A stretch of DNA of 64,000 nt. Origin: the human T2T-CHM13v2.0 reference genome, Homo sapiens. Within the stretch, counting starts at the first letter, position 1. The number at the start of each line of letters is the position of its first letter. This document shows positions 14,220-64,000 of the stretch, piece after piece. The stretch lies in the NCBI RefSeq assembly GCF_009914755.1, contig NC_060937.1; one strand, given 5' to 3'. The position numbers and the translations under genes were made by a program. The notes below the pieces were generated by a model. The model did not search any database. It saw nothing but the letters and a program-made list of their open reading frames with translations, and was not told the DNA's origin.

Positions 14220-15115
14220 AAATCTTCCTGTTATCTATTTTCAGGCAATGGGCTTTAACAACAAATCACATTGCATAATTCAACTACTGTGGAAAGAAGT
14301 CTGATGGCTCTAATTGAGCTAAGTGTAGAACTTAAAGCAGCTCACTTATCCTATTTGGGTTCAATATATTTATCCCATAAATGACCCATCCCTGCATCAA
14401 GGAATGATTTATTTAGAGATACCACATACATTTGAAATATTCCATTTATGCATTACACTAAGCCTTTAGGAGTATTACCCATTGTTGAATAAGTGTTGAT
14501 CTAACAAAATCTCCTAAGTCACAATTTGTTTAAAATACAGGATAGATCTCGAATACCTATTCTCAGACATCAGGAGACACTGGAAATACAGAACTGAAAC
14601 TACATCTCACCTAGATGTTAACCCCTTGAGGGCAGGAACTAGACTTGCTTGCCATCAGTCACCTGCAAAGGGCCCTGCATGTAGCGGACACTCTGCTTGT
14701 TGAGTGGATGTATAAAAGAACTTCCCCAGAGGTAACCAATTTGATATACAAAGAGAGAGGCTGCTTTCTGCTGTGTTGAACAATGAACACTGGCTGAGAC
14801 ACTTGTCCAAACAAAAAGAGGCTTTGAGTTACGGAATAGCCTCTGTTAACCCATACTAGGATGTTAAGCTCCTTTTGAAAGCAGGTTCCTTTGTAAACAG
14901 CCCCCTGAGCCTAGTCCAGAGCTTGGCACATAGCAGTTGTTTGTTAAATTGAATTGAGCTGACTCAGTAAAAGCCATTTAGTGTCAACAAAAATAAATGT
15001 ATTAATGCATTGCTCCAACCTGTTTTAAAAACTGCTTTCAAATTACACATTATTTTTTAATCAGGTAATACATGCACATGATACAAAATTCAAAATGTAT
15101 AAATGGGAATATAGT

Positions 15116-51622: not shown

Positions 51623-53384
51623 ATTTGATGAAACTTTTGTTGATCAGTAAACTTTTTTTAGGTTAGCTAGGAAAGCTTATTCATCAGCAAACAACTTACC
51701 AAATTGCCAAAGTTAATGATATGTTATTAAATCATTGACAACATTAGGGGAAACGTGGATAATGAACAGCGCACTTTTTTAGAATCTACATATCATTCCT
51801 AGTTTGTTCTTATGAACTGAGTGAGAAAGAAGGGAAAAAATTTAATCTAACTCATATGTTATAAAGAAAATTATTTTAGAATAGTTTATTGTATTAGATA
51901 TATCTCTTTAATTAATAAATAAGCACTTTCTTCAGTGTTTGAGATTTAAAACTGCTAATTTTGTTTCTTAAAAGATTGTGAGATTATGATGCATAAGCTG
52001 TGAGCTTCACCTCTGTATAGAAAAAGTCTGGTTTTGTGGAAATATAAATTATTATTTTAAGTGGAAATGTGAAGGCCTTAAATGTGGTACAATGAAGAGT
52101 TTTTATTTTTATATGAAGAAATATAAAACAAGAAGTAAATAAATGGCAATGACATTTTGAAAATGACATTTCAGAATATTTAAAGGACCACAAGAACAAT
52201 AAGTACATCTTGTGTGCAACTGTCTTTGAAGTTCTAATCTCAGTTCATGCCACTAAATCATCAAGGAAGATTATTTTTAACTTGTTATATAAAGGCTTTA
52301 GAAAAAAAATCAAGAAGTGCTCTCTGAGTATGAAATGTCAAACAGAAAGAAGTATTTGTACATTCTGAGTGTACTAAGGTGATATATGTGTGGATCATGG
52401 AGAATTAATTTATCCCAAATTTTCCAAAAGAGTAAGAAAAGATTTACAGAATGGGAATGACACATTTTCCTAAACATTTTCTTTGAGATGCTTTGTAAGT
52501 GGAATACTTGCGTGTGGCTAAACCACAGTACAGATTTAACTAATCAACAAAATATTGTCACTGATATTGAACCTGATAAGAGGCCCCTCTGAGAAGAACA
52601 CCAGCATCCCTATAGTCCCAGAGAAGAGCTTTAACACCAGACAGAGGAAGGACTCTGCAATCCCTCTGCAACCCCAATCAATTTGCTCCTTTCCATAAGT
52701 CTTTTTCCTCTCTCCCTTCTCTCCCACCTTTCTCTCATTTTCCTCTTGCCACCTCTCTCAAGAACACACACACATCTCTATGTTCTTACCTCTCTTAATC
52801 TAATCTATCTCTTTGCCTACAATTAAAATTTTCAGGGTGTCTTCCTTTCACCTAAAATAAATAATGACATGTATAATAAGTACTTTCTCCACATACTGAA
52901 TTTCATCAAATTATTGGTCAACATTTTGACTGTAAACATTTCCATACTTTGGGTCAGTGTGAGATCCTGCATTCATCATCTTTCTTCCAAGAGAGTGAAT
53001 TGCTCTTTCAGTAGTACACTGTCTACCTTTCTTTAATCATGTCTTGAAATTTTTATTTTTATAATGGGAAACATAAATGGTGCCATCTCTGCAGTTAGGG
53101 AGAAAATGGAAAGATCCAAATTTCTCTCACACTTTAATGTGTGTGAGCCATGATCTACTTGTTAAAATTCTTGGATTGCTAATAAAAGTCATAATATACC
53201 AAATGGTGGTAATTTGCATGAAACAAGCATATCAATCATTGAGGAATGGGCTCATGGCTCTTTATCTGGGCAGAATCATTAAGTAGAATTTATGATATAT
53301 AATGTATACTATTAAGCAGCTTCCATTAAACTTGCCTGCCAAACTCATTCTATGTAGACAGTTCTAAAAGCAAGCTGTATGCAA

Positions 53385-53400
53385 GAGCGCCACCTATAGT
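53385..53400 (-). promoter_or_regulatory. Candidate CTCF site (reverse orientation)
   Basis: Minus strand ACTATAGGTGGCGCTC versus CTCF core CCASYAGRKGGCRS; a retained CpG in very AT-rich flanks. Confidence 0.55.
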
Positions 53401-54467
53401 AAAACTTCCACATTTATTTTACAATGTTAAAACCCAGAAAATTAGATTTTGAAACAGAAAATTTTAAAGGCAAGAATAATATCCAAGAAATGAGATTTAT
53501 GGTTTAATGTATAAATTAAAAACCACCTCAAAAAAGAAATGGTAAAAAGTTTATTTCAATAAAAATATGAACATTATAAGACATGACTTTTTCTGTTTAA
53601 GGAAGAAATTGCTCTGATTTTCCAGATAATTTAAACGACAGGAATAATCTTTCTTCTAATTTAAATAAATAATAGTTCAAACAAAATTTTTACTACTTTT
53701 TAAATATTCTCTATTTTACTTTTTAACTTGCTTTTCACAAACTGCTTTTTTTGAAACCTGAAAACAATAGCTATTTAAAGCACAAGTAAACTTCTTTCTG
53801 ATGTTTAATTTTTCAGAAAATACATACCTCAAGTACTTTACTTCAGCATATATGTAAGAAAATGCTAAGGAAATGGTGACTAGAAGTACCGCTGGAGAAA
53901 TGTCCTTTAGGAGTTGATATCCACAGAAATTTAATCTTAAATACTTGTTACTTTGACCTAAAAGCTAATTATGAGGGAGTTGAGCCAAAAAGTGAGATGA
54001 ATAAAAAGAAATTTCATTGGTATTACAGAGATAGTTGCCAGAAACAGCTTACAAATCATGAATCTATGCAGAGATGAAAAGTTGAGTCTAAATTATTATT
54101 CGACTGGGTCCTTAAATCAATGGAGAGCAAAAAATGATTACAGTGGACCTTTAATTTTCAACTATAAAAAGTCAACATGGTGGCATGTCCAACAGTGTTT
54201 TACTGCAGGTCATTGAGCGAGAGAGAGAACTCTTTGCTTTTTCATCTCTAAAAAGAGTATGGTTTTTTGCTGTTGTTTAAAAAAAACACATAAGCTAAAA
54301 TAAATCGTTGCTGCAGATCACATAGGAAGCTGCTCAGCTCTCTGACCAAGTTTGGTTTGGCAGGAAGCAAACCACGAGGGGACGATGCCCTGCAGGTCCC
54401 CCTCGTTATCTCACACTTGGGCCTTTTGGCTTTTTGTGGGCCCATTGTTCATTTTGGTGAGGCTAGA

Positions 54468-54881
54468 TTTTAAGTAGATTCAGGGCTCATCAAGCAAGGT
54501 GCCAAACAGAGAACACTACAAACTGATGTCCTGTGTTTGCAGAGCTGAAGGAGCTGGGACAGCAGCCACCTTCCCACCATGCACTGTGACAGTGCTTCAT
54601 CCTTGCCCTGGGAGGCCGCTTCCCAGGATGAGAGGATAATTCTCTCACTACAGCCCATTCAATCTTCAGCCTCTCGGCTGATGCTGCCAACAGAAGTGCC
54701 AATTAATGCCAATTACAATGGTGACTTTTCTGATATGGGCACCTACTCATATAGGCCATCAAACAGCCATCATATATTAATGACTGTCAGTCATTACCAA
54801 TATGGGCGAAGTTTGAACTAGTGACCTAGAGGAGAACTGCTCTTTATCCTACTTCCAACTCCCTGAACCGTCCAATTCCCC
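54468..54881 (-). mobile_element. LF-SINE (LFSINE_Vert-like), near full-length ancient tRNA-derived SINE
   Basis: Minus strand reads ggggaattggacggttcaggga...cctctaggtcactagttcaaac...ggtaatgactgacagtcatta...gatggctgtttgatggcctatatga...aattggcattaattggcac...tgttggcagcatcagccgagaggc...tgaatgggc...ggcacctt...gagccctgaatctacttaaaa. This is colinear end to end with the LF-SINE consensus as I recall it, with one internal deletion of a few tens of bp. Confidence 0.85.
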
Positions 54882-55048
54882 TCCCCATTTCTTGGCCAAT
54901 GTTCTTAATTATAGTTTTGTACCTGAATAATGAATGTGCTACATTTTGACAGTGACAATTGCTGAAACTGTGACAGCAGAAATGCAGCTACTGTCTGCCA
55001 TTTAGCTAACCCTGTCACAGCCTTCAGGCCAGCGAGGTCCAGCTCACA

Positions 55049-55064
55049 CCTTCAGGGGGCACTA
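55049..55064 (+). promoter_or_regulatory. Candidate CTCF site (forward orientation)
   Basis: CCTTCAGGGGGCACTA closely matches the CTCF core CCASCAGGGGGCRCTA. Confidence 0.55.
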
Positions 55065-56347
55065 CATGTCCTTTGTCATTTAATCGAATGCATTTTTTAT
55101 TTGTCTTTACTACTCCTTAGAAATAAGGAGAGCATTTTTATGCAGATAAATGTGTCATGAACTTCCATGCAGATGCTGCCATTAGTCCTTTCTTATCTGC
55201 TCATTATTTCGTATAGCCTTATGAGACAGAAACTCCCCGTACAATTAAATATGCTGCAAATTAATCTTGAAGTGCACCTTTCCGTTTCAAAAAGGAAAAG
55301 CAAGTTAAACACAATAAACATCCTAAATGATAGAAAAGTGTCCAGTTCCTTTTGTAAACACATCCCTTAACCTTTCTTTTCTTTAATCTCCTTTTAATCC
55401 AACCTGGGGTGCAAACCCCTAAATGACCCATTGCTGTCTGCTGTCTGATGTGGGTGTTATCATGTTTTCAGAGACTCTGAGACTCACCTCATTTAATTCT
55501 CAGCACTGCAGCCCGCAGCAGTCAGGGCATCTATTTCATGTCTGCATTACTCCTAGATTTGGGGGGAAACATTTAGGAGAAAGAAAATGTTACTAAGCCC
55601 CTCACTCTAACTTCCAAGGAGCCAGAATGAAGACCCAGCAGTTGCCCACATACCTCTCACATCAGAAGGGCAAAAGAAGTAACCAAATGTAAAATATATC
55701 GTGTTTCCAACTCCTTACGCTTTCTCTGAAAGTAGCACCAAAAGAAAATTTGTGGGAAAATATTCTAAGATTATACTTAACTACTTTACATCCATCATAT
55801 GTTTTTTTTAAATAGTAATTCCTTTTAAAATATTTAATTCCAACACATCCATTTGGAGGTAAAGGTTAAGTAATCTGCCCTGTTCACCTAGTGAGGCAGT
55901 GGCAAAATTAAGATTAAAACTCAAACCCAAGGGCTTTAACTCTTTTCTGAGGCTGTTTATGTTTGCAATCCCAGCAAGCTCTTCTGGGTGCTACACATAC
56001 ATAATTCCATGCAATTGACAACCTGAAAAGAAAATATAATCAGCATCGTTCCGCAAAGAAGGAAAGGTAAGCCCCAGGGAGATAAGGAAACTGCCCAAGA
56101 GACCACAGTGTTTAAGCGGCAGAACAAGGATTGGAATCCAGGCATGGCTGTCTCCAAAGAACATCATTCGACATATCACGTGACTCTGAGTCCTAGGGCG
56201 ATTTATTTGAGAAGCAGCTCAAGGTTCCTTAGGCCAATTCAAATCACTGTACAAAATCCTCAGGCAGCCTCTGAATCTTTGAGATGTCAAGTCACTCCAG
56301 GTTACCCTAAAGTAAATCAGGACAGCAGCATCCAATACTAACCAGAG

Positions 56348-56717
56348 TGATGTGGTTGGGCTGTGTCTCCTCCCAAGTCTCATCTTGAATTGTAGTTCCC
56401 ATAATTCCCACGTGTCATGGGAGGCACCTAGTGGGAGATAATTGAATCATGGGGGCAGTTTCCCCCACACTGTTCTTGTGGTAGTGAATAAGTCTCATGA
56501 AATCTGGTTGTTTTATAAGGGGTTTCCCCTTTCGCTTAGCCCTCATTCTCTCTTGCCTGCGGCTATGTAAGACACGCCTTTCGCCTTCCGCCATGATTGT
56601 GAGACCACCCCAGCCACATGAAATTGTGAGTCCATTAAACCTCTTTTTTTATATATATATATAAATTACCCAGTTTTGGGTATGTCTTTATCAGCAGCAT
56701 TAAAACGAACTAATACA
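56348..56717 (+). mobile_element. THE1 (B-like) solo LTR
   Basis: tgatgtggttgggctgtgtc...tctcatcttgaattgtagttcccataattcccacgtgt...ccattaaacctcttt...cagcagcattaaaacgaactaataca. Confidence 0.93.
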
Positions 56718-56879
56718 TACAGGTAGCAGAAAACACTCTGGTTTCCATTTTTGCTCGGTGATGCTGATGCCATGTTGTGTTTTCCTTTAACACTCCAAGA
56801 ACATAAATCCAAAAGGGCACCATCTAATAAGACTTTAACTAAAATACACTCATATTATCACTATTATTAGTGACAATTC

Positions 56880-57070
56880 ACTACTGTCTACTGAGAGCTT
56901 TCCATACATTATATGCTATTAATTCTCACAAAGTGTATTATTATCCTGTTTGATGGATGGGTAAACTGAGACTCAGCCAAATTCAGCAAGTTGGCCAAAT
57001 ACACTAAACTCAAGTGAGGAGCTGGGCCCAGGATTCTCAGACTCCAAAGCTCTTTTTCACTGCACTGCTT
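56880..57070 (-). mobile_element. MIR fragment
   Basis: attattatcctgtttgatggatgggtaaactgagactcag...cccaggattctcagactccaaagc. Confidence 0.65.
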
Positions 57071-61872: not shown

Positions 61873-62269
61873 GGCTATCTTTCCCATGATATCTGTGGAG
61901 TACCAGGTCCACTAGGCTTTCTCCTGCAGGCCCCTAAGCTTTTCTTGCTCCTGAAATACATTTTTATGTGATCCCCAGAGCACCCCATCACCAACTTCCC
62001 TGCTTACCTAATCTAAGATAGCAGGCACATTTTGTAGGCCTCATAGCTCTGGGGTACCCAAAATAATTTATCTTCTCATCTTCTTCTGGTACCCACTTAG
62101 TTATCAGATTGCATGTTTTTACATAGGTATTTTAATCAATTAATTGTCCAAAATGTCCTTGCTGACAAAAAGAAAATGTCCCTACCATAGGGGAAAAATT
62201 CATTAAAAATTTTAAAGGACCGCAGTGCTTTTATAACACGGTTATATAACAGCTTATAAGCTCTTTGGA

Positions 62270-62274
<5 letters not shown>

Positions 62275-62325
<51 letters not shown>
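62275..62325. repeat. Compound (CA)n(GA)n microsatellite
   Basis: Direct reading. Confidence 0.96.
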
Positions 62326-62631
62326 ACCATAACAATGCCAGTGACTAGAATCTATAATCAGCATTGATAATCTCTTAAACTTTTTATTTGTTGTATATTA
62401 AATTCATGAAAGAATATTACAGTGGCACTGCATCTCATGATTTTAACATATGAGGCATTCGCTTACATATCTTGCTTTTCAGAATTTCTGATTAAATGTT
62501 TTAATTTAAATGGAACATAATATTTAATGTAATATCCAGCCGAAAGTGTCCCTGAAGCTTCAATTGCAAACAATCATAATAAAGAATGTTCTTGTTTAAT
62601 CTACAAAATAAGTACATTTGATTTTAATTAC

Positions 62632-63060
62632 TTGGATAATGACCAAGCAAGTACATCAGGCACATCCCTTCCAAGAGATAATGAAAGACACAGAGGAGCA
62701 AACAATATTCCTGCGAACAGACCATCACATTCTGACTCTGAGGATGACTCCACTAATGAAAATCTGTCTTTGCAAATGACTCATCTTCTGAAGACTGTTC
62801 TGAAGATGTTGGAAATCAGAATGATGCATGTGAAAATGAAATTAATCAATATGAAGATGGGGAACAGCAGTCTATCACAGAAGGGCTGTTTGATAATAAT
62901 GAAATTGAGGAAACAGTCAGTGGTAGAGAAACAAATGAAAGCACAGGAAATGTCAATGATAATAATGAATAAGTAACTATTTCTTGAAATTCAAGAGGAA
63001 GAGTTAACAAACAAAGACAAATCATCATACAGACAAATGACAAAGATGTGAAACTACATT
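62632..63060 (+). pseudogene. Decayed acidic coding-like segment (possible transposase N-terminus or pseudo-exon)
   Basis: One frameshift near 62762 joins DNDQASTSGT...SDSEDDSTNE to SVFANDSSSEDCSEDVGNQNDACENEINQYEDGEQQSITEGLFDNNEIEETVSGRETNESTGNVNDNNE*. No homolog recognised. Confidence 0.3.
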
Positions 63061-64000
63061 TGCTTTTAAGTTTATTCCAAGTTTCTAAGGATATTAAAAC
63101 ACTAATATGGTAGTAAATGTAATAGGAAGAGAGGTCTAAAATTTTCAGAACTTTGTATCAACTGGGAAGATACAAGAGTGTCCAGTTTGGCTGAAGCAAC
63201 AGAGTGTAAGAGGCAGCAGTGGGAGATAAGACTAGAAAGTTCTACTGGATTTCCAGGAGGCATTTGAAATGTCAGTATGAATCCTCTTCTTTAATTGCCC
63301 TTGCTTGTTTTTAGATTACATTTGTTCCAAACCCACAGTCCTACCCTAGTACACTTTAGCTTCTCACAACAGTATGAGAGTTCTCACTCTGTCTTCAGCT
63401 TCAGTTCTAAATGCAGTCTTTAAAATGTAGATTTTCAAAATCTCAATTGCATGGTGTTTATCAATTTCATTTCCCTCATAAGTTCTATTATTTGTAACAC
63501 CAATGGAAAATTCACACAACCATGTAATGGTACCTGGAGAAGTTATAGTTTCCCTGCACATCTGAAAGGCAGATGCCTTTGGACTGTTTTGAATGCTGTC
63601 TACAAGATTCTTACATAGTGTATAAATAATCTGTTTTCTATGCCATAAATTCCCTTTTCTCACTACAAAATTCTCCACTTCAAAAGAATCACTTGAAACC
63701 AAGGCTGTTTAGCCTAGTAAGCTATGATTTAACTCAGCCATGCCCTCTAAATCTTAGGTACACTGACCAACAGTTCCTATTTGCTCATACTATCACAATT
63801 GCATATAGCACAGACTTTAGTTTTTTGTTCATTTCTTGTGTTTTTGTTTTTGTTCTCCAAACCTAACACATTACATTTGGATGTCATTTCTTCTTGTCCT
63901 ATGACTTCTTTCCTCAGGCTAGACTTCACTCAACCTAAATCCCAGCATTTAACACGTAACAAGAGTAAAAAAGTGAAGGGAAATTACACTGGATCCCAAT

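What the first reader, a model, noticed from the sequence alone, without database searches (positions are those of the whole stretch)
54468..54881. Near full-length LF-SINE (living-fossil SINE): candidate exapted developmental enhancer
Seen: a ~414-bp minus-strand element running from a GGGG/tRNA-like head (decayed B-box GTTCAAAC at 54811-54818) through the tandem AATTGGCA-TT-AATTGGCAC core (54696-54714) to a 3' end ...gaatctacttaaaa. It matches the LF-SINE consensus as I recall it. Established: LF-SINEs were active in lobe-finned fish and early tetrapods; human copies are few and mostly partial, and known copies were exapted as an ISL1 distal enhancer and a PCBP2 exon. Inference: staying recognisable over nearly its whole length implies purifying selection, so this copy is probably a functional cis-element or an exonised sequence.
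Basis: partly seen in the sequence, partly recalled or inferred. Interest (0 to 1): 0.8.

Follow-up and report, generated by a model that had tools for sequence, protein, structure and literature searches.

The report
Near-complete LF-SINE relic upstream of DACH1
This is a real and unusually complete fossil of the ancient LF-SINE mobile element in the gene desert upstream of DACH1; the family is well known, and whether this copy acts as a gene switch remains untested.

Summary

The LF-SINE identity is supported by independent tests:
- The Rfam model of uc.338, which lies in PCBP2, matches 54507-54674 end to end (E 0.0025). PCBP2 carries an LF-SINE-derived exon according to the literature.
- A profile built from 37 other human copies, never using the window, hits the 64-kb window once. 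The hit is 54867-54445, 130 bits, E 9e-40.
- Controls are clean: 0 hits in the reversed window, and at most 5 bits in 200 shuffles.

The copy covers almost the whole family length and is the second longest of 38 copies compared. Annotated human LFSINE_Vert fragments average 121 bp. It lies about 697 kb upstream of DACH1 exon 1 and about 152 kb from MZT1.

The functional inference (constraint, enhancer or exon) could not be tested, because no other vertebrate genome or chromatin track was available.
- The copy's divergence is ordinary for the family: 69.5% identity to the majority of the other copies.
- It is not among the published Sox2-bound LFSINE copies.
- It overlaps no RefSeq functional element.

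Verdict: a known family, a genuine copy, and a plausible but unproven cis-regulatory relic. Interest is low to moderate.

The parts
54445..54881 (-). Whole LF-SINE relic: body 54468-54881 plus degraded A-rich tail 54445-54467
   Evidence: Leave-one-out nhmmer profile of 37 other human copies: 54867-54445, envelope 54891-54425, 130.1 bits, E 9e-40, model positions 70-491 of 557. Pairwise start at 54882 against the chr1 copy.
54747..54881 (-). 5' head region (called tRNA-class in Repbase), containing the B-box-like GTTCAAAC at 54811-54818
   Evidence: Single-sequence nhmmer against the chr1 copy L002, E 4.4e-13. BLAST gives 72% identity over 120 nt. The block CCTCTAGGTCACTAGTTCAAA is shared with other copies. 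ARAGORN and the Rfam tRNA model find nothing.
54778..54796 (.). Perfect 9+1+9 palindrome TAATGACTG-A-CAGTCATTA inside the SINE
   Evidence: the repeat finder pair I2. The other copies show only a shorter TGACT…AGTCA version at this position.
54696..54714 (-). Tandem AATTGGCA-TT-AATTGGCAC core, with a third TTGGCA at 54685-54690
   Evidence: The TTGGCA sites are listed. A similar string occurs at the same place in copy L045, and it reads as an 8-nt insert relative to the profile.
54507..54674 (+). Segment homologous to the ultraconserved PCBP2 element uc.338 (Rfam RF02271), antisense to the SINE
   Evidence: cmscan 25.8 bits, model positions 1-180 of 180, E 0.0025 for the 5-kb scan and 0.00035 for the 0.7-kb scan. 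This is far below the gathering score of 120.
54445..54467 (-). Remnant of the A-rich 3' tail
   Evidence: It aligns to the A-rich end of the family profile with low posterior probability. Several other copies also align past 54468.

Best explanation
Shown: window 54445-54881 (minus strand) is a nearly full-length relic of the LF-SINE retroposon family (RepeatMasker name LFSINE_Vert). It lies in the gene desert about 697 kb upstream of DACH1 exon 1 and about 152 kb from MZT1.

Inferred: the family dates to the common ancestor of lobe-finned fish and tetrapods, yet this copy is still alignable over about 420 bp. It has therefore most likely evolved more slowly than neutral DNA. It probably persists as a conserved non-coding cis-regulatory module (enhancer type) that works by binding transcription factors, not as a mobile element or an RNA gene.

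Candidate binding sites, named from recalled motif knowledge and not tested: the SOX-like CATTGT followed by two TAATTG homeodomain-like sites; three TTGGCA half-sites at 54685-54714; and the 19-nt palindrome with TGACAG at 54778-54796. The pol III B box is decayed. The target gene is unknown; DACH1 is the obvious candidate.

My odds: LF-SINE identity about 0.95, evolutionary constraint about 0.7, active enhancer in some tissue about 0.4-0.5.
For: Identity:
- The Rfam uc_338 model matches end to end. uc.338 lies in PCBP2 (PMC9829027 passages), and PCBP2 carries an LF-SINE-derived exon (PMC9148063 passages).
- That model finds 28 places in the human genome. The window sequence alone matches 9 of 29 fetched loci at E<=1.3e-5.
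- The leave-one-out profile gives E 9e-40 with clean controls.

Completeness:
- 383 well-populated profile columns are covered, second of 38 copies.
- A fresh coelacanth LF-SINE insertion is 391 nt (PMC4255032 Table 2).
- It is longer than each of the 52 Sox2-bound LFSINE_Vert fragments listed, the longest being about 405 bp.

Function at family level only:
- More than 200 conserved non-coding human instances and the ISL1 enhancer (PMC3649676 passages).
- LFSINE_Vert is one of four old SINE subfamilies enriched for DNase-hypersensitive peak overlap in more than 30% of epigenomes (PMC6904449 passage).
- 4.55-fold Sox2 enrichment in neural progenitors.
- Lhx2 enrichment in mouse brain progenitors (PMC10257727 passages).

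Context: DACH1 exon at C13:71090798-71091124.
Against: No copy-specific evidence of constraint or activity was obtained.
- Divergence is ordinary for the family (69.5% identity to the majority of the other copies). It resembles the published mean K2P of 37.8, which is about the same as largely neutral MIR and L2.
- The copy is absent from the Sox2 and Brn2 peak tables for LFSINE_Vert.
- It overlaps neither RefSeq enhancer in the window (14386-15100 and 62206-63178, hub annotation).
- The motif readings are post hoc and rest on recalled consensus sequences.
Confidence: 0.55

Rival explanations
1. A functionless fossil. This is a genuine LF-SINE copy that is still detectable only because it sits at the detection limit. 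It may have inserted later than the oldest family members or evolved in a slowly mutating region, and it does nothing today.
For: Identity to the majority of the other copies is only 69.5%. This resembles the family mean K2P of 37.8 and the values for MIR (35.7) and L2 (38.0), which are mostly neutral. Many LFSINE_Vert copies in PMC13063735 Table S1 have orthologs traced only to Theria or Eutheria. There is no Sox2 or Brn2 peak and no RefSeq functional element here.
Against: Similarity is retained evenly along about 420 bp (63-76% per segment), whereas annotated fragments average 121 bp. The family is traced to the sarcopterygian ancestor (PMC13063735 passage; about 410 My in PMC2000970). By general knowledge, neutral DNA of that age would no longer be alignable.
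Confidence: 0.3
2. A transcribed or exonised copy. Like uc.338 in PCBP2, the plus strand of 54507-54674 would serve as part of an unannotated exon or a structured non-coding RNA.
For: Plus-strand homology to the whole uc_338 model. A 90-codon stop-free frame on the plus strand at 54549-54821. The plus strand folds better than shuffles, z -3.44. According to PMC9148063, 19 LF-SINE-derived coding exons are reported.
Against: No gene is annotated in the 64-kb window (hub annotation). The Rfam score of 25.8 is far below the gathering score of 120, with many non-canonical pairs. No Rfam family reaches its gathering score anywhere in the window. The minus strand also folds better than shuffles (z -2.30), so the signal comes from local palindromes rather than a strand-specific RNA. 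No transcript data could be consulted.
Confidence: 0.07
3. Chance resemblance, or a member of a different old SINE family that was mis-assigned to LF-SINE.
For: The Dfam/Repbase consensus could not be consulted. The tRNA head is not detectable by ARAGORN or Rfam.
Against: E 9e-40 to an independent profile, with clean reversed and shuffled controls. Direct homology to the PCBP2 uc.338 segment.
Confidence: 0.03

Closest known systems
LF-SINE / LFSINE_Vert (Repbase class SINE2/tRNA; Bejerano et al. 2006, known here only through citing papers)
   Same: It is homologous along head, core, body and A-rich tail to other human copies, including the PCBP2 uc.338 segment. It belongs to a dispersed multi-copy family. 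Its length is close to the 391-nt coelacanth insertion.
   Different: It is much more complete than the average annotated human fragment of 121 bp. It carries a copy-specific perfect 19-nt palindrome. The tandem AATTGGCA appears as an 8-nt insert relative to the human-copy profile.
ISL1-proximal LF-SINE enhancer
   Same: Same family and the same kind of location: a distal intergenic site near a developmental transcription-factor gene.
   Different: The ISL1 copy has reporter evidence and conservation in mammals, chicken and frog (PMC9148063 passage). This copy has neither reporter nor conservation data here.
uc.338 / TUC338 in PCBP2 (Rfam RF02271)
   Same: 54507-54674 aligns to all 180 model positions.
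   Different: 25.8 bits against a gathering score of 120, so it is not a member of that RNA family. It is intergenic rather than exonic, and many model base pairs are broken.
Long-range DACH1 desert enhancers (Nobrega et al. 2003, as cited in PMC13763951), e.g. Dc3-4
   Same: It lies in the DACH1 regulatory landscape. Its TAATTG homeodomain-like sites recall LHX2-type inputs.
   Different: Dc3-4 maps to C13:71078907, about 710 kb away and outside the window. No link between this copy and DACH1 expression was shown.

Membership tests
LF-SINE (LFSINE_Vert) | Significant sequence homology to an accepted LF-SINE-derived sequence (PCBP2 uc.338) | tested here: met
   Rfam RF02271 matches end to end, E 0.0025 and 0.00035. 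nhmmer against the PCBP2 locus L003 gives E 3.1e-12.
LF-SINE (LFSINE_Vert) | Match to the curated Dfam/Repbase consensus | not testable with these tools
   No Dfam or Repbase library is held. The substitute was a leave-one-out profile of 37 human copies, which gave E 9e-40.
LF-SINE (LFSINE_Vert) | Member of a dispersed multi-copy family | tested here: met
   28 places match the uc_338 model. 10 places match the chr1 head copy by BLAST, including that copy itself and the window. The head pattern gives 5 hits against 1 in the control; 3 of the 5 are the sequences the pattern was derived from.
LF-SINE (LFSINE_Vert) | tRNA-derived 5' head with A and B boxes | tested here: inconclusive
   A B-box-like GTTCAAAC sits in a block shared by other copies. 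ARAGORN finds 0 tRNAs. There is no Rfam tRNA match on the window or on five other head-bearing copies. The tRNA class label comes from PMC5753468.
LF-SINE (LFSINE_Vert) | A-rich 3' tail and target-site duplication | tested here: inconclusive
   An A-rich remnant at 54445-54467 aligns to the profile tail with low posterior probability. Target-site duplication was not searched for and is not expected to survive at this age.
LF-SINE (LFSINE_Vert) | Orthologous presence deep in tetrapods (age) | not testable with these tools
   No other vertebrate genome is available.
Exapted developmental enhancer | Cross-species purifying selection on this copy | not testable with these tools
   There is only an indirect argument from family age against retained similarity.
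Exapted developmental enhancer | Transcription-factor occupancy or a curated functional-element record | tested here: not met
   It is not among the 52 Sox2 rows or the 1 Brn2 row for LFSINE_Vert in PMC13063735. Only human ESC and NPC were covered, and the hg38 position is my estimate. The RefSeq enhancers in the window are elsewhere (hub annotation).
Exapted developmental enhancer | Reporter activity | not testable with these tools
   This needs an experiment.
Rfam RF02271 uc_338 | Score at or above the gathering threshold (120 bits) | tested here: not met
   25.8 bits. Homology comes from shared SINE ancestry and does not make it a member.

The most novel reading that the evidence does not exclude
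The whole SINE (head, core and body) has been kept as one large multi-input distal enhancer of DACH1, or of KLF5 or MZT1-side genes, conserved since early tetrapods. Copy-specific gains would be the perfect 19-nt palindrome with TGACAG and the doubled TAATTGGCA. That would make it one of very few LF-SINE copies exapted nearly in full, and a second reporter-testable LF-SINE enhancer after ISL1.
Probability: 0.3. Interest if true: 0.45.

Novelty: already known. Interest (0 to 1): 0.25.

Why it matters
LF-SINE is the textbook case of an ancient mobile element recycled into an enhancer (ISL1) and an exon (PCBP2). A copy preserved along nearly its whole length in the DACH1 gene desert is a reasonable candidate for a reporter assay. 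It could also show which parts of the element are reused. The family, the phenomenon and almost certainly this copy's repeat annotation are already known, so the finding adds a candidate, not a concept.

Tried and rejected
1. tRNA detection in the head. ARAGORN found 0. Rfam found no tRNA match on the window or on five other head-bearing copies.

2. Profile searches of the human genome with a DNA alignment and with a sequence-only covariance model R1. Neither query type is accepted for this genome. I used a degenerate pattern and BLAST instead.

3. Homology upstream of 54881. It was suggested by an iterated alignment with L014 but not supported by a profile of other copies' upstream parts (best window hits E 3.3 or worse and elsewhere). 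I treat it as over-extension.

4. Tying my profile to the RepeatMasker-labelled ISL1-side LFSINE_Vert by guessing a T2T-to-hg38 offset. One 10-kb piece held no hit. The offset guess was unverified, so this says nothing either way.

5. The LHX2-bound DACH1 enhancer Dc3-4 (PMC13763951). Its guide sequences are not in the window, and one maps to C13:71078907, about 710 kb away.

6. Papers not held: Bejerano 2006, Lowe 2007, and a guessed id for Xie 2013. No supplement is readable for Lowe and Haussler 2012. The cap on papers was reached. Supplements of these papers may list this very copy with its conservation status.

8. Whole-window Rfam scan at gathering thresholds: 0 matches.

Full report
**The observation.** I read 54200-55150 on the minus strand. 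GTTCAAAC is at 54818-54811. The tandem AATTGGCA-TT-AATTGGCAC is at 54714-54696. A G-rich start lies at about 54881, and the ending gaatctacttaaaa runs to 54468.

**First independent identity test.** No Dfam or Repbase library is available, so I tested the LF-SINE claim indirectly. An Rfam scan of 52000-57000 at permissive thresholds returned the uc_338 (TUC338, RF02271) model on the plus strand at 54507-54674. It covers model positions 1-180 of 180, at 25.8 bits and E 0.0025. The E-value is 0.00035 when only 54300-55000 is scanned. uc.338 lies in an intronic/exonic part of PCBP2 (passages of PMC9829027). PCBP2 carries the human LF-SINE-derived exon (passages of PMC9148063). The score is far below the family's gathering score of 120. 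This is shared ancestry, not membership of that RNA family.

**Other human copies.** The window's own assembly is searchable.
- The uc_338 model finds 28 places in it. Three are above the cut-off, on chr12, chr19 and chr7. The other 25 fall below it, at scores from 111 down to 23 bits.
- With the window's minus strand 55050-54300 as a single nhmmer query, 9 of the 29 fetched loci match at E<=1.3e-5.
- The chr1 copy L002 covers the head (window 54882-54747). The PCBP2 locus L003 covers 54746-54468. A chr5 copy, L014, covers nearly everything.
- More head-bearing copies came from two further searches. A degenerate head pattern gave 5 matches against 1 for the reversed control; 3 of the 5 are the sequences it was derived from. 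BLAST with the chr1 head gave 10 places including itself and the window, the window at 72% identity over 120 nt.

**Leave-one-out test.** I seeded a profile with L014 and iterated nhmmer on 38 loci that exclude every copy of the window. It recruited 37 of them.
- The resulting 557-position profile hits the 64-kb window exactly once at E<=10. The hit is 54867-54445, envelope 54891-54425, 130.1 bits, E 9e-40, profile positions 70-491.
- The reversed window gives no hit, and 200 dinucleotide-preserving shuffles of 54380-54960 give at most 5.0 bits.
- The identity as a member of this repeat family is therefore secure.

**Boundaries and completeness.**
The pairwise alignment to L002 starts at 54882.
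- An apparent extension upstream, seen in an iterated alignment with L014, is not supported by a profile of other copies' upstream parts.
The profile's A-rich tail aligns about 23 bases further, with low posterior probability.
- Against columns occupied by at least five other copies, the window copy covers 383 columns, second of 38 after the seed L014.
- For scale, a recent coelacanth LF-SINE insertion is 391 nt (PMC4255032 Table 2).
- RepeatMasker totals quoted in PMC13063735 Table S3 are 2,367 LFSINE_Vert fragments covering 286,587 bp, a mean of 121 bp.
- The longest of the 52 Sox2-bound fragments listed there is about 405 bp.
- 'Near full-length' is justified. 'Few' is relative.

**Anatomy.**
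- SINE sense is the minus strand, running from head to A-rich tail. The uc_338 match is on the plus strand, so the segment shared with PCBP2 is antisense to the SINE.
- The 'tRNA-like' head is not detectable by ARAGORN or by Rfam on this copy or on five other head-bearing copies. The tRNA class label rests on Repbase as listed in PMC5753468 and on a B-box-like block shared among copies.
- The tandem AATTGGCA shows as an 8-nt insert relative to the human-copy profile. A closely similar string occurs at the same place in copy L045. It may be ancestral to a subfamily rather than unique.
- Three TTGGCA sites fall within 28 bp at 54685-54712, and no other place in the list has three within 30 bp. 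The window-wide count is ordinary, 48 against 50 expected.
- A perfect 9+1+9 palindrome lies at 54778-54796. Other copies have only a shorter version.

**Context.** The Ski/Sno DHD domain exon of DACH1 maps to C13:71090798-71091124 on the minus strand. The element (C13:71788445-71788881) is therefore about 697 kb upstream of the gene's 5' end. The MOZART1 domain of MZT1 maps to C13:71940519-71940650, about 152 kb on the other side. No gene is annotated in the window, and the two RefSeq enhancers lie elsewhere (hub annotation). A recently described LHX2-dependent DACH1 enhancer, Dc3-4 (PMC13763951), is not in the window. It maps about 710 kb away.

**Function.** This is the weak part. No other vertebrate genome, conservation score, chromatin track or transcript data can be reached with these tools, so purifying selection on this copy was not tested.

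The family-level literature favours regulatory reuse:
- More than 200 conserved non-coding human instances and the ISL1 enhancer (PMC3649676 passages).
- LFSINE_Vert is among four old SINE subfamilies enriched in DNase-hypersensitive peak overlap in more than 30% of epigenomes (PMC6904449 passage).
- 4.55-fold Sox2 enrichment in neural progenitors (PMC13063735 Table S3).
- Lhx2 enrichment in mouse brain progenitors (PMC10257727 passages).

The age argument also helps. The family is traced to the sarcopterygian ancestor, about 410 My ago (PMC2000970). Yet this copy keeps 63-76% identity to the majority of the other copies in every segment.

Against a strong claim:
- Its overall 69.5% identity is ordinary for the family. 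The family's mean K2P of 37.8 is the same as that of largely neutral MIR and L2.
- No LFSINE_Vert row in the Sox2 or Brn2 tables lies anywhere near chr13:72-73 Mb. That covers only two human cell types.

**The exon or RNA alternative.** The plus strand has a 90-codon stop-free stretch and folds better than shuffles, z -3.44. The minus strand does too, z -2.30, which points to local palindromes inherited from the SINE. No gene is annotated, and no Rfam family reaches threshold anywhere in the window. I rate this low.

**Verdict.** The copy is unusually complete. Its function as a cis-regulatory element is plausible but unshown. The family and the exaptation phenomenon are well known, and a copy this similar is almost certainly already labelled by RepeatMasker, which I could not check. 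The interest is that of a reasonable reporter-assay candidate in the DACH1 desert, not of a discovery.

Noticed in passing
window 54778-54796: A perfect 19-nt palindrome, TAATGACTG-A-CAGTCATTA, lies inside the SINE. Other family copies carry only a shorter TGACT…AGTCA version, so the extension looks specific to this copy.
   Followed up: partly
window 54968-54976 and 55012-55020: A 9-nt perfect inverted repeat, CTGTGACAG / CTGTCACAG, with 35 nt between the arms, lies about 90-140 bp upstream of the SINE head. At this length it could be chance.
   Followed up: no
window 54374-54406 (minus strand): A G/C-rich hairpin-like inverted repeat, acgagggggac…gtcccctcgt, with one bulge and a 12-nt loop, lies just beyond the SINE tail. 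It was seen by eye and falls below the repeat finder length threshold.
   Followed up: no
L014:1256-1320, L038, L020, L042 (5' ends): Four human copies share about 40-60 nt of similarity upstream of the point where the head starts in the other copies. This may be a longer 5' leader or a subfamily. The window copy does not have it.
   Followed up: partly
G000:C19:11160732-11160917 and G000:C7:88434786-88434957: Two further human places score above the uc_338 gathering threshold (177.0 and 171.4 bits), besides the chr12 place. They could be retrocopies or paralogous copies of the PCBP2 segment. I did not examine them.
   Followed up: no
window 56847-56935 (+): A weak match to the C/D-box snoRNA family snoZ161_228: 25.9 bits, E 0.12, below the gathering score of 45. 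It is probably chance.
   Followed up: no
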